Virus record (IMG/VR): IMGVR_UViG_3300045988_183115
DNA: 64,000 bases
Source: a virus
Strand: one strand, 5' to 3'
Shown piece by piece: positions 38,434 to 62,524 of this stretch. The position numbers and the translations under genes are program-made. The notes under the pieces were generated by a model. The model had not been told where the DNA came from and made no database searches. It saw only the letters and a list, made by a program, of their open reading frames with translations. Positions within the stretch are counted from its first letter, which is position 1. Each line of letters begins with the position of its first letter.

Positions 38434-38434
38434 T

Positions 38435-46614: not shown

Positions 46615-46647
46615 TTTAAATTATAATAAATAAAGGAGAACAATATT

Positions 46648-46884: not shown

Positions 46885-46911
46885 AAATAAATAAAGTTTA
46901 AGGAGAAAAAT

Positions 46912-47544
46912 ATGGCAATATTTCATGAACATTTACAATACCATCCAGACACAGTAGAGAAACATAAAATTACAGATAAAGAAATCAAATTTTTGTCTGA
47001 TTTGCAGCATGAATTAAATACACAGGACCATGTAGGACAAGCTGATCCTCGATTTTGGGTTATTATGGGGAAAGAAAAGTGTATTGTTCCAGAAGGATAT
47101 GAAGACGGTGTAACATTAATAGATAATGAGGCAGTCGAAGAAGTTGCTGATAATATTGATGATGCAATTGTATTTTTTAATAAGGAATTTGAAGAAAACG
47201 GTGATTCTTGGGTTATTTCAAAAGAATATGATGGATATTATGTTACATCAAAAGAAGATAATGATTATGAGGAATGTTTAGCTGATCTTGATGATTTAAA
47301 GACTTGGTTGAATGAGCATAATTATGGCAGATATACTTTCACCTGTTATGCATATAGAGATAAAATTTATGAAAACACAATGTTTTTAACAGAAAAGGCA
47401 GCCGCTGAACATCTAAAGGCAAATCATTATCATTACGATGAGTACGCTCATACCTATGCTATGACTGCATGGAGAAGTCCTGAAGTAGAAGATATCATTA
47501 AGATTTTACAGTCAGTAGATTTTTCTGCTATTGTTAGAAAATAA
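46912..47544 (+). CDS. hypothetical protein
   Basis: 210-aa ORF with AAGGAGAAAAA RBS. Confidence 0.55.
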   Translation: MAIFHEHLQYHPDTVEKHKITDKEIKFLSDLQHELNTQDHVGQADPRFWVIMGKEKCIVPEGYEDGVTLIDNEAVEEVADNIDDAIVFFNKEFEENGDSWVISKEYDGYYVTSKEDNDYEECLADLDDLKTWLNEHNYGRYTFTCYAYRDKIYENTMFLTEKAAAEHLKANHYHYDEYAHTYAMTAWRSPEVEDIIKILQSVDFSAIVRK

Positions 47545-47555
47545 AAGAATGATAT

Positions 47556-47611
47556 TATCGCAATTAAGCAAAAAACCCCAACCGACAATAGCCGGTTGTG
47601 GGTAGTTTAAT
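47556..47611 (+). repeat. 56-nt hairpin element, copy E (diverged)
   Basis: TATCGCAATTAAGCAAAAAACCCCAACCGACAATAGCCGGTTGTGGGTAGTTTAAT. The palindrome is CCGGCTATTGTCGG-type with compensatory changes. Confidence 0.65.
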
Positions 47612-47632
47612 TACAAGGATAGGGAAGAGAAT

Positions 47633-48622: not shown

Positions 48623-48627
48623 AATTA

Positions 48628-48660
48628 AACTGGTTACTATTAGTAGCCAGTTTTTTTATT
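48628..48660 (+). terminator. rho-independent terminator
   Basis: AACTGGTTACTATTAGTAGCCAGTTTTTTTAT. Confidence 0.75.
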
Positions 48661-48676
48661 TTTCTGTCATTGTATT
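48659..48676 (+). promoter_or_regulatory. conserved promoter-like motif
   Basis: TTTTTCTGTCATTGTATT lies ~37 nt upstream of 48707. Confidence 0.55.
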
Positions 48677-48706
48677 ATTATAAAATTTAAAAAGGAGAAT
48701 AAAATT

Positions 48707-49165
48707 ATGAAAACTAATGCATTTGAAATTAAGGAAAATAACTTAGAAACAGTAAATGATATGATAGGAGCATTATTGGAAGTGCCTAAGAATTATTTAC
48801 TGCATCCATTAGGACAGAAATGCGCAATTGCAGTTGATAATTACCATAAATGTGTATATTTAGACGATCCTAATATGATGAGCGAGTTTAAATATGAATT
48901 AGAAGAAGATATAAAAGAAAATGATGATTGGAACGGAGCAATCCCTGACGACAGTGATAACCTTGAAAGATTTTCATTTTATTATGTTTGGATAGGATAT
49001 GAGTCAGATTGCGGAGACAATTCAGGAGAATATTCATATTTTTCAAATGAGGATATGGCAAATGATTTCTTTGAATCTTCTAAAAATACTGATAAAACAT
49101 TAGGAACTGCTTCATTTATAAACGGCAGATTAGAACCTGTTAAGGTTATAAAAAGTACATTGTAA
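48707..49165 (+). CDS. hypothetical acidic protein
   Basis: 152-aa ORF with AAAGGAGAATAA RBS. Confidence 0.55.
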   Translation: MKTNAFEIKENNLETVNDMIGALLEVPKNYLLHPLGQKCAIAVDNYHKCVYLDDPNMMSEFKYELEEDIKENDDWNGAIPDDSDNLERFSFYYVWIGYESDCGDNSGEYSYFSNEDMANDFFESSKNTDKTLGTASFINGRLEPVKVIKSTL

Positions 49166-49197
49166 AAAGAAAGGAATTTTATGAAAACTTTAAATAT

Positions 49198-49253
49198 TAT
49201 CGAAGAATTGTAAGAAAACTCCATCCGACAATAGTCGGTTGTGAGTAGTTCAT
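49198..49253 (+). repeat. 56-nt hairpin element, copy F (consensus-like)
   Basis: TATCGAAGAATTGTAAGAAAACTCCATCCGACAATAGTCGGTTGTGAGTAGTTCAT is near-identical to copy D. Confidence 0.75.
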
Positions 49254-49276
49254 GCAAATACAGCAATTAATATAAT

Positions 49277-49294
49277 TGAAAGTGTCATATATGA
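49277..49294 (+). promoter_or_regulatory. promoter-like motif, GTGTCAT variant
   Basis: GAAAGTGTCATATATGAT lies ~48 nt upstream of 49336. Confidence 0.35.
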
Positions 49295-49335
49295 TAATTC
49301 TGATGAAAATAATAACAACTAAAGGAGAATAAGAC

Positions 49336-49593
49336 ATGACAATAATAAGAAATGGTAAGGAAATAAAATTAACATATGACGAAATTTATGCTGCTCATAA
49401 GGAATTTGTTTCAACATGGATGATTAATACAGCTAAAGAGATTATTCAGTCTCAATATCATTCTGATATTACTGAGAATGATTATATTGATATTGGTGAA
49501 GCAGCTTATGATACTTACGCAGAAGGTAACGGTCTTACTGAATATGAAGCTGTTGAAGATGCTGTGGAAAAATTCTTAAGTGAAAGAAATTGA
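49336..49593 (+). CDS. hypothetical protein
   Basis: 85-aa ORF with AAAGGAGAATAA RBS. Confidence 0.5.
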   Translation: MTIIRNGKEIKLTYDEIYAAHKEFVSTWMINTAKEIIQSQYHSDITENDYIDIGEAAYDTYAEGNGLTEYEAVEDAVEKFLSERN

Positions 49594-49630
49594 ATATTTT
49601 GATTTTTCATAACTAAATAAGATTTTTTGA

Positions 49631-49660
49631 AAGCGGGAGACTTATGTTTCCTGCTTTTTT
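49631..49660 (+). terminator. rho-independent terminator
   Basis: AAGCGGGAGACTTATGTTTCCTGCTTTTTTT. Confidence 0.6.
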
Positions 49661-49674
49661 TCTGTCATAAATAT
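49657..49674 (+). promoter_or_regulatory. conserved promoter-like motif
   Basis: TTTTTTCTGTCATAAATAT lies ~34 nt upstream of 49702. Confidence 0.55.
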
Positions 49675-49701
49675 ATTAAAAATTATAAAGGAGAAAAATT
49701 A

Positions 49702-50583
49702 ATGAAAAATATTATGATTTTTGATGGGAATTACATTCTCAGAAGATCTTTTTATGGTGTTCCAGAATTAAAAACCTCAAAGGGATTTCCGACTAATGCA
49801 ATTAAAGGAGCTTTAAATACAATTCTATATATGAAAGAAAAGTATAGTCCTGATGAATTAATTGTTGCGTTTGATACTGCAAAGCCAACTTTCAGGCATT
49901 TAATGTATAACGGGTATAAGGCAACTAGAGATCCTGCACCGGAAGAATTTAAGATTCAGAGACAGGCTATTGTTCCTATTCTTAAAACAATGAATATATG
50001 TGTTATTGAAAAAGAAGGATATGAAGCAGATGATATTATAGGAACAATTTCAACTATTGAAAGTAAAGCCGGAAATAAGGTTAATATTATATCTGCAGAT
50101 CATGATTTGTTACAATTATGTAATGATTTAGTATCATTAGTTGTTCCAAACAACCCGGAAGATATTTGGACTCCGGTAGAAATTATGAATGAGTATTTCG
50201 TTACTCCTAAACAGTTTATTGATGTAAAAACATTAATGGGAGATAAATCGGATAATATTCCTGGAGCTGCAGGTATTGGTCCTAAAACTGCAAGTAAACT
50301 AATACATAAGTATGGAAATTTGTTTAACATATATATGAATATTTCAGATATTGAATCTAATATGTCTAAAGGAAAAAGTATTTCAACTTGTTTAATAAAT
50401 AGTGAAGATAATATTTTGTTGTCAAAAATTTTAGCAACAATAAAAACAGATGTAGAACTTGATGCTTATAACGCTAATGTATCAGATAATATGTTAAATG
50501 AAATTAGTGAGCAGATATTAGGTTTGTATGAACTTAACAGTATTATAAGTATACTTAAAAATGGCAACATTGTTTGCTTATAA
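49702..50583 (+). CDS. 5'-3' exonuclease / flap endonuclease (Pol I 5'-nuclease-like)
   Basis: IFDGNYILRRSFY, YKATRDPAPEEF, EADDIIGTI and the H3TH segment LMGDKSDNIPGAAGIGPKTASKLI are all conserved 53EXO/FEN motifs. ATG at 49702 follows AAAGGAGAAAAA. Confidence 0.85.
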   Translation: MKNIMIFDGNYILRRSFYGVPELKTSKGFPTNAIKGALNTILYMKEKYSPDELIVAFDTAKPTFRHLMYNGYKATRDPAPEEFKIQRQAIVPILKTMNICVIEKEGYEADDIIGTISTIESKAGNKVNIISADHDLLQLCNDLVSLVVPNNPEDIWTPVEIMNEYFVTPKQFIDVKTLMGDKSDNIPGAAGIGPKTASKLIHKYGNLFNIYMNISDIESNMSKGKSISTCLINSEDNILLSKILATIKTDVELDAYNANVSDNMLNEISEQILGLYELNSIISILKNGNIVCL

Positions 50584-50603
50584 TTATATTTAAGGAGAAA
50601 ATC

Positions 50604-51020
50604 ATGATAATTGAAATTTTAACAAATGGTTGGTGTAATATTAAATTCGAAAAGACAAATTGTAGAGTGAACGCTTCATATTTAACTGATGTCCCAAATG
50701 ACTTATTAGATATGTGCATTAATTATTATAACAATAATACGGCATCCTGTTATTTTGATTCTGAAGGCTCTACAGCAACGCTAGTTTTGACACCAGATAC
50801 AGCTTTCATAATTCATGAAGGGGAGCATTTAGGCCTAATTAAACTATTGGAATCACCAAAGGAAATCATTGATTGTATAGTAAAGGAAATTGTAAAACAG
50901 ATTGATTCTGCTGCAAGTTTTTTATCATGTGAATGTAATGATTTATTTCAGTATGAAAAAAGAAAATCTGAATTAATACAAAAATTATATTTTGTACATG
51001 ATAAGAGTGATTCAAATTAA
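50604..51020 (+). CDS. hypothetical protein
   Basis: ATG at 50604 follows TAAGGAGAAAA; the ORF track start at 50574 overlaps the upstream stop. Confidence 0.5.
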   Translation: MIIEILTNGWCNIKFEKTNCRVNASYLTDVPNDLLDMCINYYNNNTASCYFDSEGSTATLVLTPDTAFIIHEGEHLGLIKLLESPKEIIDCIVKEIVKQIDSAASFLSCECNDLFQYEKRKSELIQKLYFVHDKSDSN

Positions 51021-51032
51021 AACAAATGCTTA

Positions 51033-51070
51033 ATAACAAGTACCTATTAATGGGTACTTGTTATTTTATT
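51033..51070 (+). terminator. rho-independent terminator
   Basis: AACAAGTACCTATTAATGGGTACTTGTTATTTTATTTTT. Confidence 0.8.
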
Positions 51071-51086
51071 TTTCTGTCATTTATTT
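51069..51086 (+). promoter_or_regulatory. conserved promoter-like motif
   Basis: TTTTTCTGTCATTTATTT lies ~40 nt upstream of 51120. Confidence 0.55.
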
Positions 51087-51119
51087 ATTATAACAATAAA
51101 TGGAAGGAGAGTAAAAAAT

Positions 51120-51701
51120 ATGATTAAAGAATTTAAGGAATTAGTAAATGCAATAAATTCGCCAGATAATGAATATAGAGAGAATGATTTAGATATGTTA
51201 AATTACAATATGGCCGCATTTGGAGAATATGTACAGATTGTTTATCATCAAAACTATTCAACTCCAATTAAATATGCTACACTTGAGGGAGAAGAATTAC
51301 GAGAAGCTATTCAGTCTATGGATAAAAATCGGAGAATTAAACATGAAGCTGCAATAGCTGCGTGTTCCCAAATCAATAGAGATTGTGAATATTATAATGT
51401 TCCTAAGTTTTGCCCTGAAACAACTGATAGACATATAATCGCAGATTTTTGCGCCCAGATAACGGCTGCTTTTTATCTTGACGGAATCGGTAGAGATGCT
51501 AAAACTATAGATGATGTTATAAAGGCAATGACTCAAAATTGTAAAAGTGTTAATATTAGTAATATAACAAACAATATTGACACAAATGAACTATCAGATA
51601 TTGATTTAGATTTAGGCGGAGAAGATGATGAAGATAAAATTATGCCAGATGTAATTCATACTGAAATTAATAAAGATAACAGAGAGGAAGAAGTAAGATA
51701 A
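51120..51701 (+). CDS. hypothetical protein
   Basis: 193-aa ORF with GGAAGGAGAG RBS. Confidence 0.55.
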   Translation: MIKEFKELVNAINSPDNEYRENDLDMLNYNMAAFGEYVQIVYHQNYSTPIKYATLEGEELREAIQSMDKNRRIKHEAAIAACSQINRDCEYYNVPKFCPETTDRHIIADFCAQITAAFYLDGIGRDAKTIDDVIKAMTQNCKSVNISNITNNIDTNELSDIDLDLGGEDDEDKIMPDVIHTEINKDNREEEVR

Positions 51702-52006
51702 TGGTAACTTTTATTAGAACATATGAATCCGGTCCATGGATAATAGATGAATACGATAATAAAACATATAAAATTCTATTAAGAAGAGATTCAAGAACAG
51801 GTAAAGTCATAAGATTCTTTTTTACTCCAAAGATTCCATATTATGATATTGAAATTAAAACCATAAAAGATGATTTTTATATTAGTATTACTGGTAATGT
51901 TTCATATGATATCAATGATATCGATAAATTAAAAGACAGAATAGATTATGCTAAAAATTTGATCACTTATATAAAAGAAAATATATGTAACAAGTATTCT
52001 TTTTAA
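51701..52006 (+). CDS. hypothetical protein
   Basis: 101-aa ORF. ATGG overlaps the upstream stop (translational coupling). Confidence 0.5.
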   Translation: MVTFIRTYESGPWIIDEYDNKTYKILLRRDSRTGKVIRFFFTPKIPYYDIEIKTIKDDFYISITGNVSYDINDIDKLKDRIDYAKNLITYIKENICNKYSF

Positions 52007-52013
52007 TATTCAT

Positions 52014-52043
52014 GCAAGCGTCCAAAATTGGACGCTTTTTTTA
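52014..52043 (+). terminator. rho-independent terminator
   Basis: AAGCGTCCAAAATTGGACGCTTTTTTTAA, perfect 7-bp stem. Confidence 0.8.
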
Positions 52044-52061
52044 ATTTTCTGTCATAAATTA
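52044..52061 (+). promoter_or_regulatory. conserved promoter-like motif
   Basis: TTTTCTGTCATAAATTAT lies ~38 nt upstream of 52093. Confidence 0.55.
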
Positions 52062-52092
52062 TATAGTTATGAATTGAAAGGAGAAATTTAAA

Positions 52093-53778
52093 ATGAATAA
52101 AACAGGTATTGAAGATTTAATAGCAATGAATGCTTTATATCGTCCTGGCCCTGAAAAGTTTATACCTGATTTCATAGAAGGTAAAAAGGATGCATCTAAG
52201 ATTAAATATTTATGTCCTCAATTAGAGCCAATTCTGTCAACTACTTATGGACAGATAGTTTATCAGGAACAGGTAATGCAGATTGTTCGTGATTTAGCAG
52301 GATATACATGGGGGCGTTCTGATTTAGTCCGTAGAGCTATGTCAAAAAAACATCAGGATGAAATTGATGCTGAAAGACACACTTTTGTATATGGTAATGC
52401 TGATACTAAAAAAGAAAATGAAGCATTAGTACCAGGATGTATTGCAAATGGAATACCAGAAGAAATTGCTCATAAAATCTGGGATGCGATGGTTGACTTT
52501 GCTAAGTATGCGTTTAATAAGTCACATGCCACTGCTTATGCTGTTACATCATATTGGACAGCTTTTCTTAAGTATTATTATCCGGCTTATTATCTTACAA
52601 ATGTAATAAATCATACTGATAAGATTGATGAAGTCGCTGATGATATTAGTGATGCCCTTGATTTTGGAGTAAAGGTATTGCCTCCGGACATTAATGCTTC
52701 AAATTTACATTGTGATGTTGTAGATGGGAACATTTTGTATGGTCTGAGTAATATTAAGAATGTTGGATCAGAAGCAGCTAAAATTATTGAAGATAGAAAT
52801 GTTAATGGAGAATATTCTGATATTAAGGATTTTATCAAACGAACAAATATTAATGCAGAAGCATTAAGTTCCTTAATTAAAGCAGGTGCTTTCGATTGCC
52901 TTGGTTATACAAGAACAATGATATCATTAGATATGATTTGTATGAAAGAAATTCAGGATACAATTAAGAAAATCAGAGAGAAGAGTAAGTTTATTGAAAA
53001 CGCAAGTAAAGTTATTGAATTTGTGGAAGATTATATTGATCTTGATGAGTTTAAGGAAAGAATTTCAGAAGAAAATATTTCCTTTCAAGTTACTTCAAAA
53101 AAGATGCCAACTAAGGATTCCATAATTAAACGTATCAATTCAGCTAAGACAGTTATAGAAAGCTTAGAAGATGATCTTGAAAATATAGATATTGATTATG
53201 TAGAAGATGATTTAGGTCAGATTCTAAATGATGAAAAAGAAGTGTTAGGTGTTTATATTACAGGGCATCCAATTGATGAGTATAATATTTATACAGATCC
53301 CATTTCTGATATTTCAACAGAAGTTAACGATGTATCTGGTATAATTAAAAATCTTGTTGTAAGAAAGGATAGAAATGGATACGAATGGGTAACTTTTGAG
53401 GTAGAAGATAAAACAGGTTCTATTAATGGTGTATGTTTTTCTAAAGATTATGCAAATATTAGAGACTTACTTGTTAATGATGCTAAATTATGTTTATCAG
53501 GAAAAATTCAAGTAGATGATTTTAGATCTTCAGATGACGAAACTGTATATCAGATTATTGTTAAGTCTGTTAAACCTTTAAAGAAAAATAAGTCTTCATA
53601 CAGATTTATATGTACTGTTTCCGAAGTAAACGATGTTCTTGATTCTATTAATGAATATCTGGTAGATAATGACGGGGATTATTTATATTGGCTTGATTCA
53701 ACAACCGGAATTGAACATTTATGCAAGAAATTCATTAACCCTGATATGTCAGCACCTTCAATAGTACGCAAATGCTAA
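52093..53778 (+). CDS. dnaE: DNA polymerase III alpha (DnaE-type), C-terminal piece (fingers, beta-clamp-binding, OB-fold region), separately expressed
   Basis: EDLIAMNALYRPGPEKFIPDFIEGKKD continues E. coli DnaE (FEDMIALVALFRPGPLQ) directly after the end of exon 2. Further matches include YQEQVMQIVRDLAGYTWGRSDLVRRAMSKK. The C-terminal OB-like part includes VVRKDRNGYEWVTFEVED. Confidence 0.8.
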   Translation: MNKTGIEDLIAMNALYRPGPEKFIPDFIEGKKDASKIKYLCPQLEPILSTTYGQIVYQEQVMQIVRDLAGYTWGRSDLVRRAMSKKHQDEIDAERHTFVYGNADTKKENEALVPGCIANGIPEEIAHKIWDAMVDFAKYAFNKSHATAYAVTSYWTAFLKYYYPAYYLTNVINHTDKIDEVADDISDALDFGVKVLPPDINASNLHCDVVDGNILYGLSNIKNVGSEAAKIIEDRNVNGEYSDIKDFIKRTNINAEALSSLIKAGAFDCLGYTRTMISLDMICMKEIQDTIKKIREKSKFIENASKVIEFVEDYIDLDEFKERISEENISFQVTSKKMPTKDSIIKRINSAKTVIESLEDDLENIDIDYVEDDLGQILNDEKEVLGVYITGHPIDEYNIYTDPISDISTEVNDVSGIIKNLVVRKDRNGYEWVTFEVEDKTGSINGVCFSKDYANIRDLLVNDAKLCLSGKIQVDDFRSSDDETVYQIIVKSVKPLKKNKSSYRFICTVSEVNDVLDSINEYLVDNDGDYLYWLDSTTGIEHLCKKFINPDMSAPSIVRKC

Positions 53779-53800
53779 TTTAATATTTATTTTATGTTTT

Positions 53801-53829
53801 ACCGCTGTTTATTGCAGCGGTATTTTTTT
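53801..53829 (+). terminator. rho-independent terminator
   Basis: ACCGCTGTTTATTGCAGCGGTATTTTTTT. Confidence 0.85.
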
Positions 53830-53848
53830 ATGTAAAGATTTTTAAAAT

Positions 53849-53866
53849 TGTATCTGTCATATATAT
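53849..53866 (+). promoter_or_regulatory. conserved promoter-like motif heading the CPBP-unknown-sigma operon
   Basis: ATTGTATCTGTCATATATAT lies ~30 nt upstream of 53891. Confidence 0.55.
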
Positions 53867-53890
53867 ATTAGAAAGGTTGGAGGAAAATAT

Positions 53891-54802
53891 ATGATACTTA
53901 GTAACAATAACAGTAATATTAAGGAATTAAGAAATAAAAAAAATAAGCATGATTTAAATTCTTATATGGATTTTATGGTGAAAAACAAAATGAAAAGTAA
54001 TTCTTTCTTTTCAAAATCAAAACAGTATATAAAGATTTTTATTCCATTTATTATTTCTGTTTTTATAATTTTATTTTCAATGTTTATTGCAACATTTATA
54101 GACAGTCTATTAAATATGTATATGAATGATGCAGGAGGAATTTCAACTAAAATAGATTATGAAGGATTTCGATTAATTTACACAATATCAACATATACAT
54201 TAATGTTTGTTATGTGCCTTATTTGTATAAAAAGCTCATTTTACAATTATAAAAAAGATTTGTTTATGAAAAATAAATTAGTAGTAAATTGGAATTTTGC
54301 ATTTTGTTTCATATTAATTTCTGTAATATTGCAGCTTATTTCAGGAATTCAAATGCATTTTGTAAATGTATCAGATATTGATTATGGAAGTTTAGGAATA
54401 AAAACAATTATATCTACAATAATAGCAACTTTTGTGGCACCTATTATTGAGGAATTGACTTTTAGATATATAATTTATGGCTATGCATATAAAGCAAGCA
54501 ACAATAAATTATGTGCAAATATAATCCAAGCAGTTTTATTTGGAATAATTCATTTTAATTTTATTTTATTCCCTATATATGCTTTTGGCGGATATTTGTT
54601 AGGTGCTGTAAGAGATAAATATGGTATTAAACTTAGCAGCTTATATCATATTCTAATAAACTGTGTGGCATTAATACCATTTACGTTTTTTATAACAAAT
54701 ATATATTTACAGGTATGCATTTTAATAGTCTGCATAATGAGTTTAATTTATTTTGTAATTAAGTGTTTTGAAAATATCAATATAGAAATTAAGGAGCAAT
54801 AA
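53891..54802 (+). CDS. CPBP (CAAX protease / Abi) family intramembrane metalloprotease, second copy
   Basis: Multi-TM protein with IIEELTFRYIIYG (EExxxR) and FGIIHFN (HxxxN). Paralogous to 36129..36995. Confidence 0.75.
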   Translation: MILSNNNSNIKELRNKKNKHDLNSYMDFMVKNKMKSNSFFSKSKQYIKIFIPFIISVFIILFSMFIATFIDSLLNMYMNDAGGISTKIDYEGFRLIYTISTYTLMFVMCLICIKSSFYNYKKDLFMKNKLVVNWNFAFCFILISVILQLISGIQMHFVNVSDIDYGSLGIKTIISTIIATFVAPIIEELTFRYIIYGYAYKASNNKLCANIIQAVLFGIIHFNFILFPIYAFGGYLLGAVRDKYGIKLSSLYHILINCVALIPFTFFITNIYLQVCILIVCIMSLIYFVIKCFENINIEIKEQ

Positions 54803-54805
54803 TTT

Positions 54806-55201
54806 ATGGAAACAAATATGAATAATGAATTAAAAAATAAGTCTATAAGTGATATCCTTGAAGCTTCTTCAACGGATTTATATGAATGGTATTTAATTAA
54901 TTTTAAGAAAGAAATTCCTAGATCAGATGAAATAGATTTATTGGAAATAGGAAATTTATTGAGTGAAGTAGGAAATTATTTTACCTATTTTTCCTCAATG
55001 CATTCTATTTTAGATTCAATGGTAAAAGAAATGAAATTACACAAAGAGTCTTCAGATAAATGTAAAGAGCTTATGATTAAACGAGATATATTAGGAACCT
55101 TTGAAGAGCAATCTAAATTTACATATAATGCAATTAGTAGAATATGTACAATGAAAATAGAAGCAAATAATGAATTAAAAATGCTAGGACATCAATGTTA
55201 A
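54806..55201 (+). CDS. hypothetical protein between CPBP protease and sigma factor
   Basis: 131-aa ORF starting 4 nt after the upstream stop. No recognizable motif. Confidence 0.55.
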   Translation: METNMNNELKNKSISDILEASSTDLYEWYLINFKKEIPRSDEIDLLEIGNLLSEVGNYFTYFSSMHSILDSMVKEMKLHKESSDKCKELMIKRDILGTFEEQSKFTYNAISRICTMKIEANNELKMLGHQC

Positions 55202-55213
55202 GAGGAGATTTTT

Positions 55214-56242
55214 ATGGCAGATAAGAATTTATTATTAAATAAAAAAAACAATAAAGATGAATATATTGATGAATTATTTGATACAAATAAACCAATAGAA
55301 AACATAAATATTTTATCAGAGGATAATTATACCGATATTTTAAATGATAAAGAGATTTTAAATGAAAAAGAGAAACTATTATTAGAAAATAATATAACTT
55401 ATTATATTAAATCATTCGCTGATTATCCGGTTTTATCCAAAGATGAAACTCTTAAATTATTTGAAGAGATAAAAAAACATCCTAAAAAGAAAAAAGAAAT
55501 AACCGAAAAATTGATTTTATCTAATATGCGTTTAGTCATCAGTATTGCTAAAGCTGTTACAGCTAAAACGCAAAGTTTTGAAATGGATGATTTATGTCAG
55601 GCCGGTATTTTCGGGTTATACAGAGCTATACAAATGTTTGATTATAAATTAGGATATGCATTTTCAACTTATGCAACTCATTGGATTAGACAGAGTATAT
55701 ATAGAGAATTAGCCAATTATGATTTATTAGTTAGATTCCCTGTACATGTAAGAGAACAGGATTCTTTTGTTAAGACTACATTTGTGGATTTAACTAATAA
55801 ACTTCAAAGAAAACCTACAATTGATGAATTATATGATGTAGTAAAACAAAGATATCCTCTTTTAACTAAAGAAATGCTTGTGCATATTCAGAGTTTTAAT
55901 GAATTGGTTTCATTAGATGCACCTATTCAAAGTGATGAAGGCCATGACGATTCATGTTTGGCTGATTATATAGAAGCTCCTGAACCTAAAGTTGAAGATA
56001 CGATTATTCAAAAAGAAATGAAAGAACTGCTTTGGAAAGAAGTTGAAGATTGTCTCACTCCTAGAGAATTATATGTAATTAAGGGTAGAATGGGATATGG
56101 CTCAAAAGTTAAAACTTTACAAGATATAGGTACTGAATGGAATGTATCCAGAGAACGAATCAGACAGATTGAATCAAAAGCAATAAAAAAGATTAGAGTT
56201 CGTTTCAGACGGAAAGGATATAGTATACAATCTTTTATGTAA
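55214..56242 (+). CDS. sigma-70 family RNA polymerase sigma factor
   Basis: Region 2 is NMRLVISIAKAV...DLCQAGIFGLYRAIQMFDYKLGYAFSTYATHWIRQSIYREL. Region 4 HTH is LQDIGTEWNVSRERIRQIESKAIKKIR. Confidence 0.85.
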   Translation: MADKNLLLNKKNNKDEYIDELFDTNKPIENINILSEDNYTDILNDKEILNEKEKLLLENNITYYIKSFADYPVLSKDETLKLFEEIKKHPKKKKEITEKLILSNMRLVISIAKAVTAKTQSFEMDDLCQAGIFGLYRAIQMFDYKLGYAFSTYATHWIRQSIYRELANYDLLVRFPVHVREQDSFVKTTFVDLTNKLQRKPTIDELYDVVKQRYPLLTKEMLVHIQSFNELVSLDAPIQSDEGHDDSCLADYIEAPEPKVEDTIIQKEMKELLWKEVEDCLTPRELYVIKGRMGYGSKVKTLQDIGTEWNVSRERIRQIESKAIKKIRVRFRRKGYSIQSFM

Positions 56243-57071
56243 TATATAAATAAAATGCAGTTATCAATAGGTAGCTGTATTTTTTTTATGATTACACTTC
56301 CTTTAAGTGTAATATGTCATACACCTTTTTTAGAACCTTTTTATTATTTTCTTTTCCATTGATACGCTTTTTATTATTAAAATATAAAAATTAGAGCCTT
56401 ATATAATACATTTGATTATTCCTTAATAGCGTTTTAAGACTTAATATAATAACCGCCAGAATATTATTAAGGATTAAAAGCGTATAACTATTATTGTCAT
56501 ATCCTTATACAATATCATTTATCAGCTTAATACATTTTGTGTTTATTTCCCTGGTAATTCCTTACCTGTCTCTAGCAAGCACTTCATTTATCCCAATTAA
56601 TGCCTTTAATACACTAATAAATAATATAATTCCCTCATATATAATATATGATAATTACAAAAATTATGATTACTAGATTCCTGTAAATCTATTCTTCGCC
56701 CTGCAAATGCCTTAGTAAGCCCAATAATCCCATTTCTATCTCCAATAGCTGCATTCTTATACACTAATTCTTTCTTATTTGCTCTTAGATCTATTTCCTT
56801 TACTCTATCATTCCTATATATGTTTCCAGTAATTCCATTAATTAACTTTAGTAAATAATAATTATATCCCATTAATCAGTTATATTTATTTTTCTCACTG
56901 ATCATACAGTCTATTGTACCCAATTAATCCATATATAATTGCTAATATTACCAATTATATGTTATCAAATTAACATTTTTTATCTCTTAAATCAGCATAT
57001 GATAACTACATCATGGTATTATTCTGACACATATAAGGCATTTTATTGGCTATGCAACGGATAATACATTA

Positions 57072-57328
57072 CTATATATTGTTATCATTATTACATTTAT
57101 GTATCAAATATTTAGCTATATATTGTTAATTTTATTACACAAATTTTTCTATTCTATAACATAATGTTGTTATTTTTAATGTATATTAAATCATATTTTA
57201 TATCTATATATTGTTATTATTTTTGTATCTTAGCTATATTTTAATAAATCTTAAATAACTATATATTGTTAATAAAGTTAACATATTAAACTAATATATA
57301 ACAATAAACGTACAATATATTGTTATTA
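57072..57328 (+). repeat. iteron-like direct repeats (5 copies of CTATATATTGTTAWT) within a 1.3-kb gene-free AT-rich region
   Basis: Copies at 57072, 57116, 57204, 57259 and 57316, plus a partial inverted copy near 57291. Spacing 44-88 bp. No ORF with an RBS in 56243..57523. Confidence 0.6.
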
Positions 57329-57474
57329 TTTTTTACAAGTGAAGGCATAGTATACCCAATAAAGTGCTTAGAAAAACACAAAAACGGGATATTTTAATAA
57401 ATAAAAGGCATTTACATTTAGTTGCTGTCTTATTTTAACACACATCAATTATTTTATGTAAAATAATAATTCAT

Positions 57475-57492
57475 TTTTTCTGTCATATTAAA
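57475..57492 (+). promoter_or_regulatory. conserved promoter-like motif
   Basis: TTTTTTCTGTCATATTAAA lies ~38 nt upstream of 57524. Confidence 0.55.
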
Positions 57493-57523
57493 AATATAAC
57501 TAAATAAAAGGAGAATTAATTAT

Positions 57524-58465
57524 ATGCAAAAAATGAATTACGAAAATTTTCTTAAACATCTTAAATTCGAATTACTTCAAAATATTGAAGATATTACACC
57601 AACAGATATAGTTTGCACATCAGATAAGCTTATTTTTCATTCTAAAAATCAGTTTATGTGTCCCTTAGAATTTAAATTAAATCAATTATATAAACAATAT
57701 TTAAATAATTCGTCAATAGAAGAAATTGCATTGTCAATATCTGAAGCATTTTATAGAAACAAAAATTCTAATGGTAGTGAATATAAACTTAATAATTTAG
57801 CTCCAGAAATTAATTTAAATGATATAAAACACTATATTATACCTCAATTAATACAAAAGCCGGACAATATGGAAGATTTAAGCGGTATTCCTCATAGGCC
57901 ATTTTATGAGTTCGAAATAATTTATAATGTGATCATACCTAAAGAAAATTCAGAAGGTACAATGTTTGTAATTGATAATAACTATATGAGAGACATACTG
58001 AAAATTGATGAAAACGAATTGTACAATCTTGCAATTCATTCAATATATTCCAACAAATATTTTATCAGTGTATTAGGTGATTATTTTTTGACGCAACTGG
58101 CAGATGATGATAATTATGAAAAAACAAAGAAAGAATTATTTTCTCTAAGTAATTCTGATGGGTTTGAGAGCAAATGTATTAAAGGAATATATGCAATTCA
58201 AAATATAATTGACTTTTATAACACAAGTGCAATTCTGAATAATAATTTGCTTAAGAATATTTCAGAGAAACTGAAAACAAATTTATACATTGTTCCTGTT
58301 ACAGCACATATTCTGTTGATATGTAAATACAATGAATTTACTCCTGAAGAAATTCAAATGGCATTAAAGATATTTGGTATTCAGGAAGAAGAAGATTATC
58401 TGAGTTCAGATATATTTATATTTAACAAAGAATCAGGTGAATTAAGTGAACTACCCACCACCTAA
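57524..58465 (+). CDS. hypothetical protein; stop codon overlaps the left-end hairpin of the IscB element
   Basis: 313-aa ORF with AAAGGAGAATTAA RBS. C-terminal codons ...ELPTT-stop lie within CCCACCACCTAAAGGTAGTGGG. Confidence 0.6.
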   Translation: MQKMNYENFLKHLKFELLQNIEDITPTDIVCTSDKLIFHSKNQFMCPLEFKLNQLYKQYLNNSSIEEIALSISEAFYRNKNSNGSEYKLNNLAPEINLNDIKHYIIPQLIQKPDNMEDLSGIPHRPFYEFEIIYNVIIPKENSEGTMFVIDNNYMRDILKIDENELYNLAIHSIYSNKYFISVLGDYFLTQLADDDNYEKTKKELFSLSNSDGFESKCIKGIYAIQNIIDFYNTSAILNNNLLKNISEKLKTNLYIVPVTAHILLICKYNEFTPEEIQMALKIFGIQEEEDYLSSDIFIFNKESGELSELPTT

Positions 58466-58737
58466 AGGTAGTGGGCTTCTGTTAAATGGTTCACCAGACT
58501 AAGTATTCAGAAATGGATACTACGATATTTAGGTTATGATACCTTCGGTTGACGCAACAGACCGTTGCTCTATCGTACATATTTAAGTTAGGTCAGAGTA
58601 AGAACAGCCTTGTGATATGTACATAAAAGCCTTTATATCATTGTCGAGTTGAAGTCGGAACAATCGTATGGTAAACAGTACGACAAAGTACGCATCACCT
58701 ACTATTAAGTAGAGTATTTATAAGGAGGAACTTATTT
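58466..58737 (+). ncRNA. putative IscB omega RNA scaffold (IS left-end region upstream of iscB)
   Basis: A 270-nt GC-enriched, ORF-free stretch lies immediately 5' of iscB and begins with an imperfect hairpin. This is the position where IscB omega RNAs are known to be encoded. No tRNA features. Confidence 0.5.
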
Positions 58738-59997
58738 ATGGTTTATGTGATTTCACAAGATGGTAAACCACTAATGCCCTGTAGTAACTCTATAGCAAGA
58801 TTGTTACTTAAACAAAGCAAAGCAAAAGTTAAGAAACGTGAGCCATTTACAATTAAATTGACTTATGAAACAACAAATTACACTCAAGACTTAACTCTTG
58901 GTGTAGATACCGGAAGCGGAACTATTGGCACTTCTGTAAGCAAAGACAATGGAGATATTATCTATATGTCGGAAGTTGTTATAAGAAACGACATTACCGG
59001 CAAAATGACACAAAGAGCAAAGTATCGTAGAAACAGACGAAATCGTAAAGCTCGTTATAGAAAAGCAAGATGGTTAAATCGTGCTAATTCTATTAAGAAT
59101 GATAGATTTAGCCCTACGATGCAGAGTAAGCTTCATAGTCATGTTAAAGAGATAAAATATATTAAATTTATTCTTCCGATTACAGAAATGGTATTTGAGA
59201 CAGGTCAGTTTGATACTCACCTTATGAAAAATCCAAATCTTGCTAATCCTAAAATTAAACATTGGGGTTATCAGAAAGGTATTAATTATGGGTTTGAGAA
59301 TACCAAAGCGATGGTTCTTAATCGAGATAATTATACTTGTCAATATTGTAAAGGCAAACATAAGGATAGTAAGTTAGAAGTTCATCATATTTTATTTCGT
59401 AGTCAGGGGGGTTCTGATGAAGAAAGTAATCTAATTACTCTGTGTCATACCTGTCATAAAGATTTACATAGTGGAAAAATTAACCCCAAATTGAGTGGTA
59501 AAGTTAAAGGTAATCTTAAATATGCCACACAGATGAACTCTATTCGTAAACAGCTTTTTAAATTATATCCAGATGCAGTTGAGACCTTCGGATATGTGAC
59601 AAAAGCTAACCGTTTGCTTCTTGGCATTGACAAAGAACATTATTATGATGCCTGTACGATTGCAACACAAGGCAATATATTTACTGTAAAATCCAACCTT
59701 TACAAAAAGAAATGCATTTCAGATGGTGATTTTCAAAAAACAAAAGGGATTCGTTCAGAACAGCCTATTATCACTGATAAGATTTGTGGCTTTAGAAAAT
59801 TTGACAAAGTTCGATACTTTGGAAACAAATATTTTATCAAGGGTAGAATGTCCACTGGATATGCAGTTCTCATGGATATAGATGGTAACAAGGTTGATTT
59901 TTCGGCAATGCCAAAAGGATACAAGACACCTAAATTGAGTAATTGTAAACGCATAATGGCAAGGTCAACTGAAATGATACAGACCTTGGTAATTTAA
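58738..59997 (+). CDS. iscB: IscB RNA-guided endonuclease (PLMP domain, split RuvC with inserted HNH)
   Basis: PLMP motif is QDGKPLMPC. RuvC-I is LTLGVDTGSGTIGTSV. Arg-rich bridge helix is RAKYRRNRRNRKARYRKARW. RuvC-II glutamate is in ITEMVFETGQFD. HNH is CQYCKGK...HHILFRSQGG...NLITLCHTCH. RuvC-III is EHYYDACTIA. Length 419 aa. Confidence 0.8.
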   Translation: MVYVISQDGKPLMPCSNSIARLLLKQSKAKVKKREPFTIKLTYETTNYTQDLTLGVDTGSGTIGTSVSKDNGDIIYMSEVVIRNDITGKMTQRAKYRRNRRNRKARYRKARWLNRANSIKNDRFSPTMQSKLHSHVKEIKYIKFILPITEMVFETGQFDTHLMKNPNLANPKIKHWGYQKGINYGFENTKAMVLNRDNYTCQYCKGKHKDSKLEVHHILFRSQGGSDEESNLITLCHTCHKDLHSGKINPKLSGKVKGNLKYATQMNSIRKQLFKLYPDAVETFGYVTKANRLLLGIDKEHYYDACTIATQGNIFTVKSNLYKKKCISDGDFQKTKGIRSEQPIITDKICGFRKFDKVRYFGNKYFIKGRMSTGYAVLMDIDGNKVDFSAMPKGYKTPKLSNCKRIMARSTEMIQTLVI

Positions 59998-60100
59998 CGC
60001 CATTCATTCCACGGTCTAAAGACCATGGGTTTTCTGGCTAAAACATTATAAAATAGAATAAACAATACAATATATATTAAAACAGAAAGGAAAGAGAAAG

Positions 60101-60622
60101 ATGATTATAACTATATTAGTAAATGTAGTCTTTGTTGTTTCATTGATTATGCTTAGTTTTTATTTTGTGACTGCAAACATATACGATATGACTCTTATAG
60201 ATAAGGCATTTATGTCTTTACTTATGGGAGCATTGCCAGCGCTTGTTAATATAAGCTTTAAAAATTTTATAGCTATTGTGATAGCCTTATTAATCAGTGT
60301 AATGGCTCTTGTATGGATAGCTTTTACAAAATTTTTTGAAAAAGAACATGAAAAAGAACTTCTTTATGATTGTTTGCTTGATGATATATCACAGGATGAT
60401 TTAAAGAAATTCAGACATATGAGCCGTAATGAACAGATTGCTTTTCTAAAGGCTGTTATTACAACTGTAGAATCAACGGAAAAGGAAGAGTCCACTGATG
60501 GGAACGGTAATAAGGTTATTACAACCAAGACAGTAATACAGCGAATACCTTTAATTGAGAATGATGAAGAATTAGCAGAGTATGAACCAATCCTTAGAAA
60601 GGAGAGAAATAATGACATTTAA
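60101..60622 (+). CDS. hypothetical membrane protein
   Basis: 173-aa ORF with GGAAAGAGAAAG RBS. Three N-terminal TM helices. Confidence 0.55.
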   Translation: MIITILVNVVFVVSLIMLSFYFVTANIYDMTLIDKAFMSLLMGALPALVNISFKNFIAIVIALLISVMALVWIAFTKFFEKEHEKELLYDCLLDDISQDDLKKFRHMSRNEQIAFLKAVITTVESTEKEESTDGNGNKVITTKTVIQRIPLIENDEELAEYEPILRKERNNDI

Positions 60623-60887
60623 AGAAGCAAGGAAAGAGGCAAGAGAAATAGCACAGCGAACCGGATATTGGGGATATATTTTTAAAGATAAATCCGGGGA
60701 ATGGTTTACATCAGACTGTAATAATTTTACTTCTGATAATTCATTCTATGTAAATAAGGCCGGTAAGATCCTTAACATGCAAAAATATGAGAAGATAAAA
60801 AAGAAGTTTGATAAGCAGGGGATAAGAGGACTGTGTTTATTTTCGCCCGAATTAATGAAATATATTGAACAGCATGGCGGTTATTAA
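60612..60887 (+). CDS. hypothetical protein
   Basis: ATG at 60612 follows AAGGAGAGAAA and overlaps the upstream gene end. Confidence 0.5.
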   Translation: MTFKEARKEAREIAQRTGYWGYIFKDKSGEWFTSDCNNFTSDNSFYVNKAGKILNMQKYEKIKKKFDKQGIRGLCLFSPELMKYIEQHGGY

Positions 60888-61017
60888 AAATATGATAAAA
60901 AAATTATAATATATAATGATTTTTCTTTAATTTAAGTTAATACATTTACACTACTTAAATATAAAATAGTGTGGATTTTACACTATTTAGATAGAAGATA
61001 ATAAATGGGGGCTATTT

Positions 61018-61308
61018 ATGAAGATTATTATACTTTCGTTTATTGTAACTTTTATGGTAATAATGCTATTTAAATCAACTATTGATTTAATTGACAGAGT
61101 AAAAGAGAAGTCATTTCTATATAGTCTTATTGAGCAATGCACTGATTGCAGCCATGATGAGATTATTACCTTTAAGAAGCAGTTATCAAGGGAAGAACAG
61201 ATAACATTTTTAAAGTCACTTAAGTATAAGAAATCTTATAAGGATGGATTTCTTATTACAGAAGAGACAGATTTTAAGGTATATAAACCAATACTAAAAA
61301 GGAGATAA
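61018..61308 (+). CDS. hypothetical membrane-anchored protein
   Basis: 96-aa ORF with GGGGG RBS and an N-terminal TM helix. Shares the theme ...HMSRNEQIAFLKAV / ...QLSREEQITFLKSL with the C-terminus of 60101..60622. Confidence 0.5.
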   Translation: MKIIILSFIVTFMVIMLFKSTIDLIDRVKEKSFLYSLIEQCTDCSHDEIITFKKQLSREEQITFLKSLKYKKSYKDGFLITEETDFKVYKPILKRR

Positions 61309-61311
61309 ATT

Positions 61312-61986
61312 ATGAAATTTGAGAAAAAGAAATCATTTTGGAAAGTTTTTTTAGATGAGTGTGCAGGAGTAATATTAGCTGGGGCAATTATGATATACAT
61401 TGCCTTATCTGCCATTATAGGAAATTTGATATTGCCATACATAAATAATGGGAAAGAAATAAATCCGTATATAGAAGATGTAAGCAGTAAGTTTACAATA
61501 TTTTTGATAAAAACAGCCATAGGTGCTATATGGCTATTTGGCGTAATTTTCATGCTGTTAATTGCTTTTGCTATTATAAGCTTAATTGTAATAGCAATAA
61601 TAACCGGAATAACACATATAATAGCCGTAAAACGATACACATATTTACCTCTTACAGCAGATGAAGTAAGAGAAGCTATAAATGCAGGATTATTTAAAGA
61701 TACTCCTGAAAGCTATATAGATTATCTTACAAAACAGATGAAGTATTTTGATGGCAGTATAACCTTTTCAATAAATGATATGAAAATGATAATAAAAACA
61801 GTAAAGGAAATATGGGATAAGCCATTTAAGCTTAATAAAGATTATCTTATCAGGAATGAAATAGAAAGTTATGATTATTTCCCATTTAGATTTAGGGATG
61901 ACAGAGATGATTTATTTCAGTTAAAGAAAGGCAAAACAGTAACTTTTGATATGGATGAAGGTTCTTTGATTCAGGATATCAAATAA
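61312..61986 (+). CDS. hypothetical membrane protein
   Basis: 224-aa ORF with AAAGGAGATAAATT RBS and three TM helices. Its 3' end is duplicated as a fragment at 62425..62524. Confidence 0.55.
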   Translation: MKFEKKKSFWKVFLDECAGVILAGAIMIYIALSAIIGNLILPYINNGKEINPYIEDVSSKFTIFLIKTAIGAIWLFGVIFMLLIAFAIISLIVIAIITGITHIIAVKRYTYLPLTADEVREAINAGLFKDTPESYIDYLTKQMKYFDGSITFSINDMKMIIKTVKEIWDKPFKLNKDYLIRNEIESYDYFPFRFRDDRDDLFQLKKGKTVTFDMDEGSLIQDIK

Positions 61987-62001
61987 AAAGGAGCATATAA
62001 G

Positions 62002-62415
62002 ATGAATAGAGATAAAATTTTTAATTTAGTTATATGTTTAACATTTAGTATTACACTTATTTTGATTATAACAGCATTGCAGCTTGGACTTAGATATGAA
62101 ATTAAGGAGTTTTCAAAAGAAACCACAGAAGAAGCCCAGCTTTACAGTATCAGTACAGATAAGGAATATGAAGGCTCATTTGTATTAGGTTCAGGAAGTA
62201 TTGGTTCACAAGAATATATAACTGCTTACCAGATTACAGAAGACGGTGGTAAGAAGTATTTCAAGATGAACAGAGATAAAGTAACAATCTATGATACATT
62301 AAACAATGATGAACAGGCTTATGCAGAGATAAAGAAGACTTCATTAGGAATTAAAGAAATTAAGCTGTACGTTCCTAAAAATACAATAGAAAAGGAAATT
62401 AATCTTAATTTATAG
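62002..62415 (+). CDS. hypothetical membrane-anchored protein
   Basis: 137-aa ORF with AAAGGAGCAT RBS and an N-terminal TM helix. Confidence 0.55.
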   Translation: MNRDKIFNLVICLTFSITLILIITALQLGLRYEIKEFSKETTEEAQLYSISTDKEYEGSFVLGSGSIGSQEYITAYQITEDGGKKYFKMNRDKVTIYDTLNNDEQAYAEIKKTSLGIKEIKLYVPKNTIEKEINLNL

Positions 62416-62424
62416 TAGGGATAA

Positions 62425-62524
62425 ATTTGGGATTGACAGATATGATTTATTTTGCCAGTTAGAGAGAAACAAAACAGTTGCTTTTGATATTGATGGTTGT
62501 TCTTTAATTCAAAATGTCAAATAA
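62425..62524 (+). pseudogene. truncated duplicate of the 3' end of gene 61312..61986
   Basis: About 100 nt align with 61883..61984 at ~80% identity. The final 16 codons (TVAFDIDGCSLIQNVK-stop) are preserved against TVTFDMDEGSLIQDIK-stop. No start codon or upstream ORF. Confidence 0.6.

What the first reader, a model, noticed from the sequence alone, without database searches (positions are those of the whole stretch)
58466..60035. Solo IscB (Cas9-ancestor) with an upstream structured region consistent with an omega RNA, embedded in the phage-like block
The 419-aa protein has the full IscB domain order: PLMP motif, RuvC-I (GVDTGSG), Arg-rich bridge helix, RuvC-II glutamate, HNH (C-x2-C ... HH ... 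N ... C-x2-C), RuvC-III (HYYDACTIA) and a C-terminal target-interaction-like tail. The 270 nt immediately upstream are GC-enriched, ORF-free and begin with a hairpin, which is exactly where IscB omega RNAs are encoded by established knowledge. No tnpA accompanies it, and imperfect hairpins lie at both presumed ends. The stop codon of the upstream gene falls inside the left-end hairpin, so the insertion has reshaped a resident gene. All catalytic residues appear intact, so this may be a functional RNA-guided nuclease carried by the element, either a homing device or something repurposed. The conserved promoter motif is not seen again after this element.
Basis: partly seen in the sequence, partly recalled or inferred. 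Interest (0 to 1): 0.75.

Follow-up and report, generated by a model that had tools for sequence, protein, structure and literature searches.

The report
Intact solo IscB transposon in phage
This is an intact 1.6-kb mobile element encoding the RNA-guided nuclease IscB and its guide RNA, inserted into the end of a gene of a very large gut phage-like genome; it follows the known rules for such elements, so it is a clean new example, not a new kind of system.

Summary
ORF 58738..59997 (419 aa) is an IscB: Pfam RRXRR 3.5e-53, HNH 4e-12, OgeuIscB structures E 4e-41. The RNA upstream is a full-length HEARO/omega RNA (Rfam RF02033, 58446..58659, 109.8 bits, gathering score 83).

Two related viral contigs lack the insertion. 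They fix the element at exactly 58446..60047 (1602 bp), with no target-site duplication. The empty site reads GAATCAGGTGAATTAA|ATAAA: the 16 nt left of the element (the presumed guide), then ATAAA.

The same 30-nt end occurs at about 45 different sites in gut metagenomes, viral contigs and Clostridia genomes. The left flank varies between sites. ATAAA abuts the right end in 17 of 21 unique sites, which makes it the likely TAM (TTTAT on the TnpA strand).

The omega RNA shows compensatory changes in 23 of 65 predicted pairs, and IscB dN/dS is 0.08-0.10. Catalytic residues and both end hairpins are intact, and there is no tnpA inside the element.

This is a non-autonomous IS200/IS605 (ISC) IscB element that most likely homes into empty alleles. 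It is a new member of a known kind. Cleavage activity is inferred, not shown.

The parts
58446..60047 (+). Whole mobile element (1602 bp): omega RNA + iscB + both transposon ends. There is no target-site duplication.
   Evidence: Alignment with two empty-site alleles, L011 and L012. The same 1602-bp unit is in L001-L009. Copies 86% identical lie at other sites.
58430..58445 (+). Presumed 16-nt guide GAATCAGGTGAATTAA. It is flanking DNA: the last codons of the original DUF5688 gene.
   Evidence: Conservation among 23 copies starts sharply at 58446, and the 16 columns before it are unconserved. About 45 different left flanks were found. The 16-nt length is taken from OgeuIscB (own knowledge), not measured here.
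58446..58714 (+). Omega RNA scaffold. The Rfam HEARO match covers 58446..58659. Two further covarying hairpins lie at 58664..58683 and 58699..58712.
   Evidence: RF02033 at 109.8 bits against a gathering score of 83, E 9.7e-22, model positions 1-211. RNAalifold found compensatory changes in 23 of 65 pairs. The last hairpin was read from the alignment.
58454..58475 (.). Subterminal imperfect hairpin at the omega end (the TnpA-defined right end). The terminal 8-mer GTGAACTA at 58446..58453 reads TAGTTCAC| on the other strand.
   Evidence: The orientation rule comes from PMC10055086.
58738..59997 (+). iscB CDS, 419 aa. Catalytic residues D57, E154, H216/H217, N231, H301 and D304 are intact.
   Evidence: Pfam RRXRR 3.5e-53 and HNH 4.2e-12. 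OgeuIscB structure entries E 4e-41 to 4e-40; HfmIscB aligned over residues 3-403. dN/dS is 0.08-0.10 against 11 copies.
60009..60029 (.). Subterminal hairpin at the iscB-distal end (the TnpA-defined left end). The element ends 18 nt further on, at 60047.
   Evidence: On the minus strand the order reads TTTAT | 18 nt | hairpin.
60048..60052 (+). ATAAA, the conserved flank motif: the inferred TAM and TnpA target (TTTAT on the minus strand).
   Evidence: It is present in the empty alleles directly after the guide match. It occupies the same position in 17 of 21 unique insertion sites, and in 2 more it is offset by 1 nt.
57524..58465 (+). Resident DUF5688 gene. Its last 6 codons and its stop (58446..58465) are supplied by the element.
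   Evidence: Pfam DUF5688 3.6e-28. Empty alleles end ...GELNKIE* (311 aa), whereas the window reads ...GELSELPTT* (313 aa).
57479..57488 (+). Last copy of the replicon's promoter-like motif (TTTTTCTGTCATAT), 36 nt upstream of the DUF5688 start. It is the likely source of the read-through transcript that carries guide + omega RNA (inference).
   Evidence: There are 23 copies on the + strand against 0.26 matches expected on both strands together (24 found), and several checked copies lie just upstream of ORF starts.

Best explanation
This is a non-autonomous IS200/IS605-superfamily (ISC-type) insertion sequence. It carries only an omega RNA gene and iscB, and it is inserted at the 3' end of a DUF5688 gene in a very large, AT-rich gut replicon that looks like a huge phage.

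Shown here:
- The insertion is precise and has no duplication.
- It has two related subterminal hairpins.
- It abuts ATAAA.
- It belongs to a family with many copies at different sites.
- Its RNA and protein are both under purifying or structural selection.

Inferred mechanism:
- Transcription from the DUF5688 promoter reads through the gene's end into the element. This gives an RNA whose 5' part (about 16 nt, GAATCAGGTGAATTAA) is flank-derived guide and whose remaining ~270 nt is scaffold.
- IscB binds this RNA and cuts any DNA in which the guide match is followed by ATAAA. That sequence is exactly the uninterrupted allele.
- The occupied allele is spared, because there the match is followed by GTGAA.
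- Repair of the break from an occupied genome copies the element in. This would restore it after excision by a TnpA supplied in trans, or convert co-infecting genomes that lack it.
For: IscB identity. Omega RNA.

Boundaries and empty site: L011 and L012 are 97% identical to the window in the flanks and read ...GAATCAGGTGAATTAA|ATAAAATAG.

Family mobility: the 30-nt end occurs in 5 viral, 10 genome and 56 metagenome stretches. These represent about 45 different left flanks.

Flank motif: ATAAA in 17 of 21 unique sites. This agrees with the published rule that TnpA and IscB read the same AT-rich motif and that the omega RNA sits at the TnpA-defined right end (PMC10055086).

Selection: dN/dS 0.08-0.10, and compensatory changes in 23 of 65 RNA pairs.

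Transposase supply: L049 is an autonomous relative, with omega-iscB (71% identical) convergent with a Y1 tnpA.

Prevalence: the exact protein is indexed in 388 blocks of gut assemblies, and every place shown has it in this same context.

Transcription: the promoter-like motif lies directly upstream of DUF5688.
Against: No expression or cleavage data exist.

The cognate TnpA was not found in this replicon. The only tnpA in the window is 30% identical to the one next to an omega-only copy and 39% identical to L049's. Transposition here may therefore be dormant.

Among near-identical genomes the site is almost always occupied, and the two empty alleles come from lineages about 3% diverged. The pattern could thus be one old insertion inherited vertically, without any homing.

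The guide length and the TAM are inferred from comparison, not measured. No terminator or processing site for the RNA was identified.
Confidence: 0.85

Rival explanations
1. The element is immobilised and has been taken over by the phage as a weapon. IscB, guided by the fixed flank sequence, destroys related competitor phages that lack the insertion, rather than serving transposon maintenance.
For: No cognate tnpA was seen in the replicon. The insertion is near fixation in one lineage, while sister lineages keep a perfect target plus ATAAA. The ORF is 100% conserved across all ten places shown.
Against: The guide is simply the insertion flank, as in every other copy. Nothing distinguishes this copy from ordinary family members: same length, same ends, same RNA. 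Cutting an empty allele leads to homing as readily as to exclusion, so this is largely the same mechanism seen from the phage's side.
Confidence: 0.1
2. It is a decaying relic: an old insertion with no remaining activity.
For: No tnpA is in cis. The position is fixed in the main lineage. Some family members elsewhere are frameshifted (L071, L073) or reduced to 48-nt or 345-nt remnants.
Against: The ORF is intact with all catalytic residues. dN/dS is about 0.09, including 0.10 against the 98.6%-identical copy at the same site. The omega RNA matches the full model at 109.8 bits. Both ends are intact.
Confidence: 0.04
3. It is a free-standing protein-only HNH homing endonuclease of the kind common in large phages, and the upstream structure is a leader or terminator.
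For: PHROG annotation calls the family 'HNH endonuclease' (phrog_119, 1.2e-51). Large phages carry many free-standing HNH genes (PMC12363816).
Against: The split RuvC domain, bridge helix and PLMP domain align to solved IscB structures. The upstream RNA is a HEARO/omega RNA with covariation. The unit moves as a defined 1602-bp element, with the RNA forming one end.
Confidence: 0.01

Closest known systems
ISGst5 IscB element of Geobacillus stearothermophilus (Meers et al., PMC10055086)
   Same: A non-autonomous IS605-type element with the omega RNA upstream of iscB and bounded by the TnpA-defined right end. The guide is the flank. An AT-rich 5-nt motif on the other flank is read by both TnpA and IscB. 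Its role is to cut the empty donor joint. Catalytic positions correspond (D58/H209/H210 there; D57/H216/H217 here).
   Different: The flank motif here is TTTAT (ATAAA in iscB orientation) rather than TTCAT. The host replicon is a giant phage-like element, not a chromosome. No cognate TnpA was identified in the same genome. Nothing has been tested experimentally.
OgeuIscB-omega RNA (PDB 7UTN, 7XHT, 8CSZ)
   Same: Same domain order and catalytic residues, E about 4e-40. Same RNA family, HEARO RF02033.
   Different: This protein has 419 aa against 496. phmmer aligned OgeuIscB only up to query residue 311, so the C-terminal part is divergent. The window's flank ATAAAA fits OgeuIscB's NWRRNA TAM (own knowledge), but position 6 varies among family copies.
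[quoted passage not shown]
   Same: Full-length match, model positions 1-211, directly upstream of the HNH/RRXRR ORF.
   Different: Two further covarying hairpins lie 3' of the Rfam model (58664..58712). Meers et al. noted the same for the family in general.
Free-standing homing endonucleases of T-even phages (SegF, Mob and similar)
   Same: It works like them if active in co-infection: it would cut the allele that lacks the gene, and repair would copy the gene in (PMC13565253 lists 'transposon non-restorative homing' into co-infecting phages).
   Different: The target is read by an RNA guide plus a 5-nt motif, not by the protein. The unit is also a transposon with defined ends. It is not a member of those protein families.

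Membership tests
IscB (OMEGA RNA-guided nuclease) | N-terminal PLMP domain, RuvC-I and Arg-rich bridge helix (Pfam RRXRR) | tested here: met
   PF14239 3.5e-53, residues 2-181 matching profile positions 1-174 of 174. PLMP at residues 11-14 and D57 are present.
IscB (OMEGA RNA-guided nuclease) | HNH domain inserted in the RuvC fold, with catalytic His and Asn and a zinc-binding Cys pair | tested here: met
   PF01844 4.2e-12. H216/H217, N231, C201/C204 and C236/C239 align to OgeuIscB.
IscB (OMEGA RNA-guided nuclease) | RuvC-II Glu and RuvC-III His/Asp | tested here: met
   E154, H301 and D304 align with 'vvlEln' and 'kdHylDa' of OgeuIscB.
IscB (OMEGA RNA-guided nuclease) | C-terminal TAM-interacting domain | tested here: inconclusive
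   phmmer aligns residues 3-403 to HfmIscB 134-524, but OgeuIscB only to residue 311. No structure was predicted.
IscB (OMEGA RNA-guided nuclease) | Omega RNA (HEARO) encoded directly upstream on the same strand, with a variable guide at its 5' end | tested here: met
   RF02033 at 109.8 bits. Compensatory changes in 23 of 65 pairs. The 16 columns 5' of the scaffold are unconserved across 23 copies.
IscB (OMEGA RNA-guided nuclease) | Guide- and TAM-dependent double-strand DNA cleavage | not testable with these tools
   This needs a biochemical or plasmid-interference assay.
IS200/IS605 superfamily (ISC-type) transposable element | Precise insertion without target-site duplication or terminal inverted repeats | tested here: met
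   Empty and occupied alleles compared: TTAA|ATAAA against TTAA[1602 bp]ATAAA.
IS200/IS605 superfamily (ISC-type) transposable element | Subterminal imperfect hairpins at both ends | tested here: met
   58455..58475 and 60009..60029 share the pattern CCAC-N3-CTAAAG-N4-TGGG, expected 0.06 times by chance. Both fold, and fold better on the minus strand.
IS200/IS605 superfamily (ISC-type) transposable element | Insertion next to a conserved 4-5-nt target motif on one side only | tested here: met
   ATAAA follows the iscB-distal end in 17 of 21 unique sites. The other flank shows no conserved motif.
IS200/IS605 superfamily (ISC-type) transposable element | Multiple copies at different genomic sites | tested here: met
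   About 45 distinct flanks in viral contigs, metagenomes and Clostridia genomes.
IS200/IS605 superfamily (ISC-type) transposable element | Y1 (HUH) TnpA transposase, in cis for autonomous members | tested here: not met
   The 1602 bp contain no other ORF, so this is a non-autonomous member, like about 98.5% of iscB loci (PMC10055086). The relative L049 has a convergent tnpA. The window's tnpA fragment at 1..243 belongs to another IS.
Cas9 / type II CRISPR | CRISPR array, tracrRNA, REC lobe and adaptation genes | tested here: not met
   No repeat array in 50-64 kb. The only Rfam family reaching its gathering score in the window is HEARO. At 419 aa the protein is too short to hold a REC lobe (own knowledge). 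No cas1 or cas2 among the ORFs I annotated.

The most novel reading that the evidence does not exclude
In a very prevalent giant gut phage, a transposase-less IscB element acts as a natural RNA-guided gene drive between co-infecting phage genomes. It is nearly fixed in one lineage, while sister lineages (about 3% diverged) still carry the perfect 16-nt target plus ATAAA. This would be a field example of 'non-restorative' OMEGA homing, or of competitor exclusion, in viruses.
Probability: 0.3. Interest if true: 0.6.

Novelty: new member of a known kind. Interest (0 to 1): 0.33.

Why it matters
The locus gives a fully specified natural IscB system: a 419-aa nuclease, a ~270-nt scaffold, a defined native guide, an inferred TAM (ATAAA), and naturally occurring empty target alleles in sister genomes. 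That makes guide- and TAM-dependent cutting, and homing between large phage genomes, directly testable. It adds no new principle. Everything observed follows the rules already published for IS605-family IscB elements.

Tried and rejected
- DNA searches of the locus against GenBank phages and PLSDB plasmids found nothing useful.
- A search for stop-codon recoding found that the standard code fits the window.
- I first read L033 as an 'omega RNA-tnpA' autonomous element and then rejected that. The omega part ends in its own end hairpin about 345 nt in, and the tnpA lies outside it behind a terminator-like hairpin, so the linkage is only suggestive.
- I tested whether the tnpA-tnpB IS605 at the window's left edge could be the cognate transposase. 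Its TnpA is only 30-39% identical to those near family members and its hairpins differ, although the terminal 8-mer TAGTTCAC is shared. This remains unresolved.
- I looked for excess similarity of the element relative to its flanks in the diverged occupied contig L062, as a homing signature. The difference was 2/141 against 25/976 mismatches, which is not significant.
- I tried to count empty against occupied alleles through exact-protein look-ups of neighbouring genes. This gave only rough numbers.
- I checked whether other IscB copies sit in the same replicon. The loci carrying them lack the replicon's promoter motif and low GC.
- I compared the replicon with the published 'Jug' huge phages. 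General features agree, but the paper and its supplements do not mention the marker domains, so this is untested.
- I skipped structure prediction because the sequence evidence was already decisive.

Full report
**1. What is in the sequence**

ORF 58738..59997 (+) encodes 419 aa. It is preceded by AAGGAGG at 58722..58728. Pfam gives RRXRR (3.5e-53, full profile) and HNH (4.2e-12).

A sequence search of solved structures puts IscB entries first. The OgeuIscB structures 7UTN, 7XHT and 8CSZ score E about 4e-40. HfmIscB aligns over residues 3-403. The residues that align to the OgeuIscB active sites are all present: D57, E154, H216/H217, N231, H301 and D304.

Upstream, Rfam's HEARO model (RF02033, the RNA now called the IscB omega RNA) matches 58446..58659 over its full length. 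The score is 109.8 bits against a gathering score of 83. It is the only family reaching its threshold anywhere in the 64 kb. This stretch has 38% GC against 28.5% for the window, and no ORF of 40 aa or more.

**2. Exact boundaries**

Searching viral contigs with the upstream DUF5688 protein returned two contigs, L011 and L012, whose flanks are 97% identical to the window. In both, the DUF5688 gene is followed directly by the downstream gene.

Aligning the junctions shows a clean 1602-bp insertion, 58446..60047, with no duplicated target. The empty site reads ...AACAAAGAATCAGGTGAATTAA|ATAAAATAGAATAA. The first base of the HEARO model is the first base of the insertion.

The insertion replaced the gene's last codons, so NKIE* became SELPTT*. 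The new stop codon sits inside the first hairpin of the RNA.

**3. It is a member of a mobile family**

The first 30 nt of the element occur exactly in 5 viral stretches, 10 genome stretches and 56 metagenome stretches. The genomes are Lachnospiraceae, Oscillospiraceae, Blautia, Falcatimonas, Anaerovoracaceae and other Clostridia, plus one Phoenicibacter MAG. These represent about 45 different left flanks.

- Many stretches carry full-length elements with IscB 70-89% identical to this one.
- A few copies are frameshifted.
- Some are reduced to 345-nt omega-only units or 48-nt end-to-end fusions.

Across 23 aligned copies, conservation begins abruptly at the base corresponding to 58446. The 16 bases before it are unrelated between copies, as expected for a guide taken from the flank.

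On the other side, 8 nt after the conserved GGCT, the flank begins with ATAAA in 17 of 21 unique sites, and in two more it is offset by one base. Position 6 onward is variable. Because the window's empty alleles contain this ATAAA, it is target DNA and not part of the element.

**4. Ends**

The two ends carry related imperfect hairpins, at 58455..58475 and 60009..60029. The shared pattern is expected 0.06 times by chance.

Read on the minus strand, the layout is the classical IS200/IS605 one. It runs TTTAT | 18 nt | hairpin ... hairpin | TAGTTCAC |, and both hairpins pair better on that strand.

**5. Evidence of function**

RNAalifold on the 23 copies predicts 65 pairs, and 23 of them show compensatory double changes. 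Two further hairpins beyond the Rfam model (58664..58683 and 58699..58712) also covary.

Nei-Gojobori dN/dS between this iscB and 11 full-length copies is 0.08-0.10.

The exact protein is indexed in 388 blocks of public gut assemblies. In every place shown it sits in this same context, on contigs up to 649 kb.

**6. Most likely mechanism (inferred)**

A strongly over-represented motif, TTTTTCTGTCATAT, has 23 copies on the + strand, with 0.26 matches expected by chance on both strands together (24 found). The copies I checked lie just upstream of ORF starts. Its last copy is at 57479..57488, 36 nt before the DUF5688 start.

Read-through from there would produce an RNA carrying the flank-derived guide fused to the scaffold. 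IscB loaded with it should cut GAATCAGGTGAATTAA followed by ATAAA, which is the empty allele. It should spare the occupied allele, where the same 16 nt are followed by GTGAA.

Repair from an occupied copy then restores or spreads the element. This is the published 'restorative homing' model. Extending it to co-infecting phages or plasmids is already discussed as 'non-restorative homing' (PMC13565253). No step of expression or cleavage has been shown for this locus.

**7. Transposase supply**

The element holds no tnpA. The window does begin with the last 81 codons of a Y1 TnpA followed by a tnpB (1..1516). That TnpA is only 30% identical to the tnpA next to an omega-only copy (L033) and 39% identical to the tnpA convergent with the iscB of L049.

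L049 has omega-iscB (71% identical) facing a Y1 tnpA, and it looks like an autonomous relative. Whether any TnpA available to this replicon can move the element is unknown.

**8. Population picture**

Of 23 long contigs carrying the identical neighbouring sigma-factor protein, the places shown are occupied. The one exception is a variant with a 4.9-kb deletion that removes DUF5688, iscB and five small genes.

Empty alleles come from lineages about 3% diverged. An equally diverged contig (L062) is occupied. One occupied contig (L085) has 24 mismatches packed into 59508..59628, which looks like a conversion tract from another iscB copy. These data are compatible with homing but do not demonstrate it.

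**9. Context**

All the large ORFs (300 aa or more) of the window are on one strand. GC is 28.5% and the standard genetic code fits.

Genes include RecA, two UvrD-type helicases, RecJ, a primase-like protein, a 5'-3' exonuclease, a sigma-70 factor, PBP1A, flotillin, PARP, GGDEF and HD-GYP proteins, and a Pol III alpha encoded in at least three pieces. Related contigs are listed in IMG/VR.

This fits a huge phage, and general features resemble the 'Jug' phages (PMC12363816). However, I saw no structural genes, and that identification is untested.

**10. Verdict**

The locus is an intact, apparently functional, non-autonomous IscB insertion sequence with a defined guide, an inferred TAM and natural empty targets. 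It is a new member of a well-described kind. Its interest lies mainly in being a ready-made natural test case for RNA-guided homing in a large phage genome.

Noticed in passing
window 1..1619: A second OMEGA-type element, with 40% GC in its first kilobase. It consists of the C-terminal 81 aa of a Y1 TnpA (cut by the window edge) and a tnpB (221/260..1516; Pfam OrfB_IS605 + TNB). Its right end finishes with hairpin + TAGTTCAC at about 1619. That is the same terminal 8-mer as the IscB element's omega end read on the other strand, but the hairpin differs.
   Followed up: partly
L005 16353..18146: A tnpA-tnpB IS605 (TnpA 71% identical to the window's fragment) is a polymorphic insertion in an otherwise collinear relative of this replicon. 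It is absent from L001 and L002, so IS605-type elements are currently moving in this genome group.
   Followed up: partly
window 43054..53778: DNA polymerase III alpha is encoded in at least three separate ORFs: 43054..44895 (PHP and N-terminal part), 45785..46543 (middle part) and 52093..53778 (finger, HHH, OB). Eight unrelated ORFs lie in between, including RlaP-like, 5'-3' exonuclease and DUF3232 proteins. Rfam detected no intron.
   Followed up: no
window 4757..57488 (23 sites on the + strand): The motif TTTTTCTGTCATAT(A/T) recurs 23 times on the coding strand, several checked copies lying just upstream of ORF starts. Only 0.26 matches are expected by chance on both strands together (24 found). 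It is probably the replicon's own promoter type, and no copy occurs between 57489 and 64000.
   Followed up: partly
window 56243..57523: A 1.3-kb gene-poor spacer holds 5-6 copies of CTATATATTGTTA (57070, 57114, 57202, 57258, 57311), and the GC skew changes sign locally. It could be an origin or a regulatory region.
   Followed up: no
L092 (window 57586..62503 missing): A natural 4.9-kb deletion variant removes DUF5688, the IscB element and five small downstream genes, with about 14 nt of overlap at the junction. These genes are therefore dispensable.
   Followed up: partly
L085, corresponding to window 59508..59628: In a contig with the same insertion site, 24 of the 33 differences from the window cluster in 120 nt of iscB. 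This looks like gene conversion from a different IscB copy.
   Followed up: no
L014, L016, L050, L067, L068; L035/L045; L033/L039/L056/L065; L043/L054; L044: Derivatives of the same IS occur elsewhere. There are 48-nt fusions of the two end hairpins and 345-nt omega-RNA-only elements, one group of which lies about 160 nt upstream of a Y1 tnpA. There are also omega RNA remnants followed directly by DNA methyltransferase-like ORFs instead of iscB; their function was judged from sequence motifs only, with no Pfam check.
   Followed up: partly
window 3264..7413: A PARP-domain protein, an HD-GYP protein and a GGDEF protein are encoded side by side. This is unusual signalling-type cargo for a phage-like replicon.
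   Followed up: no
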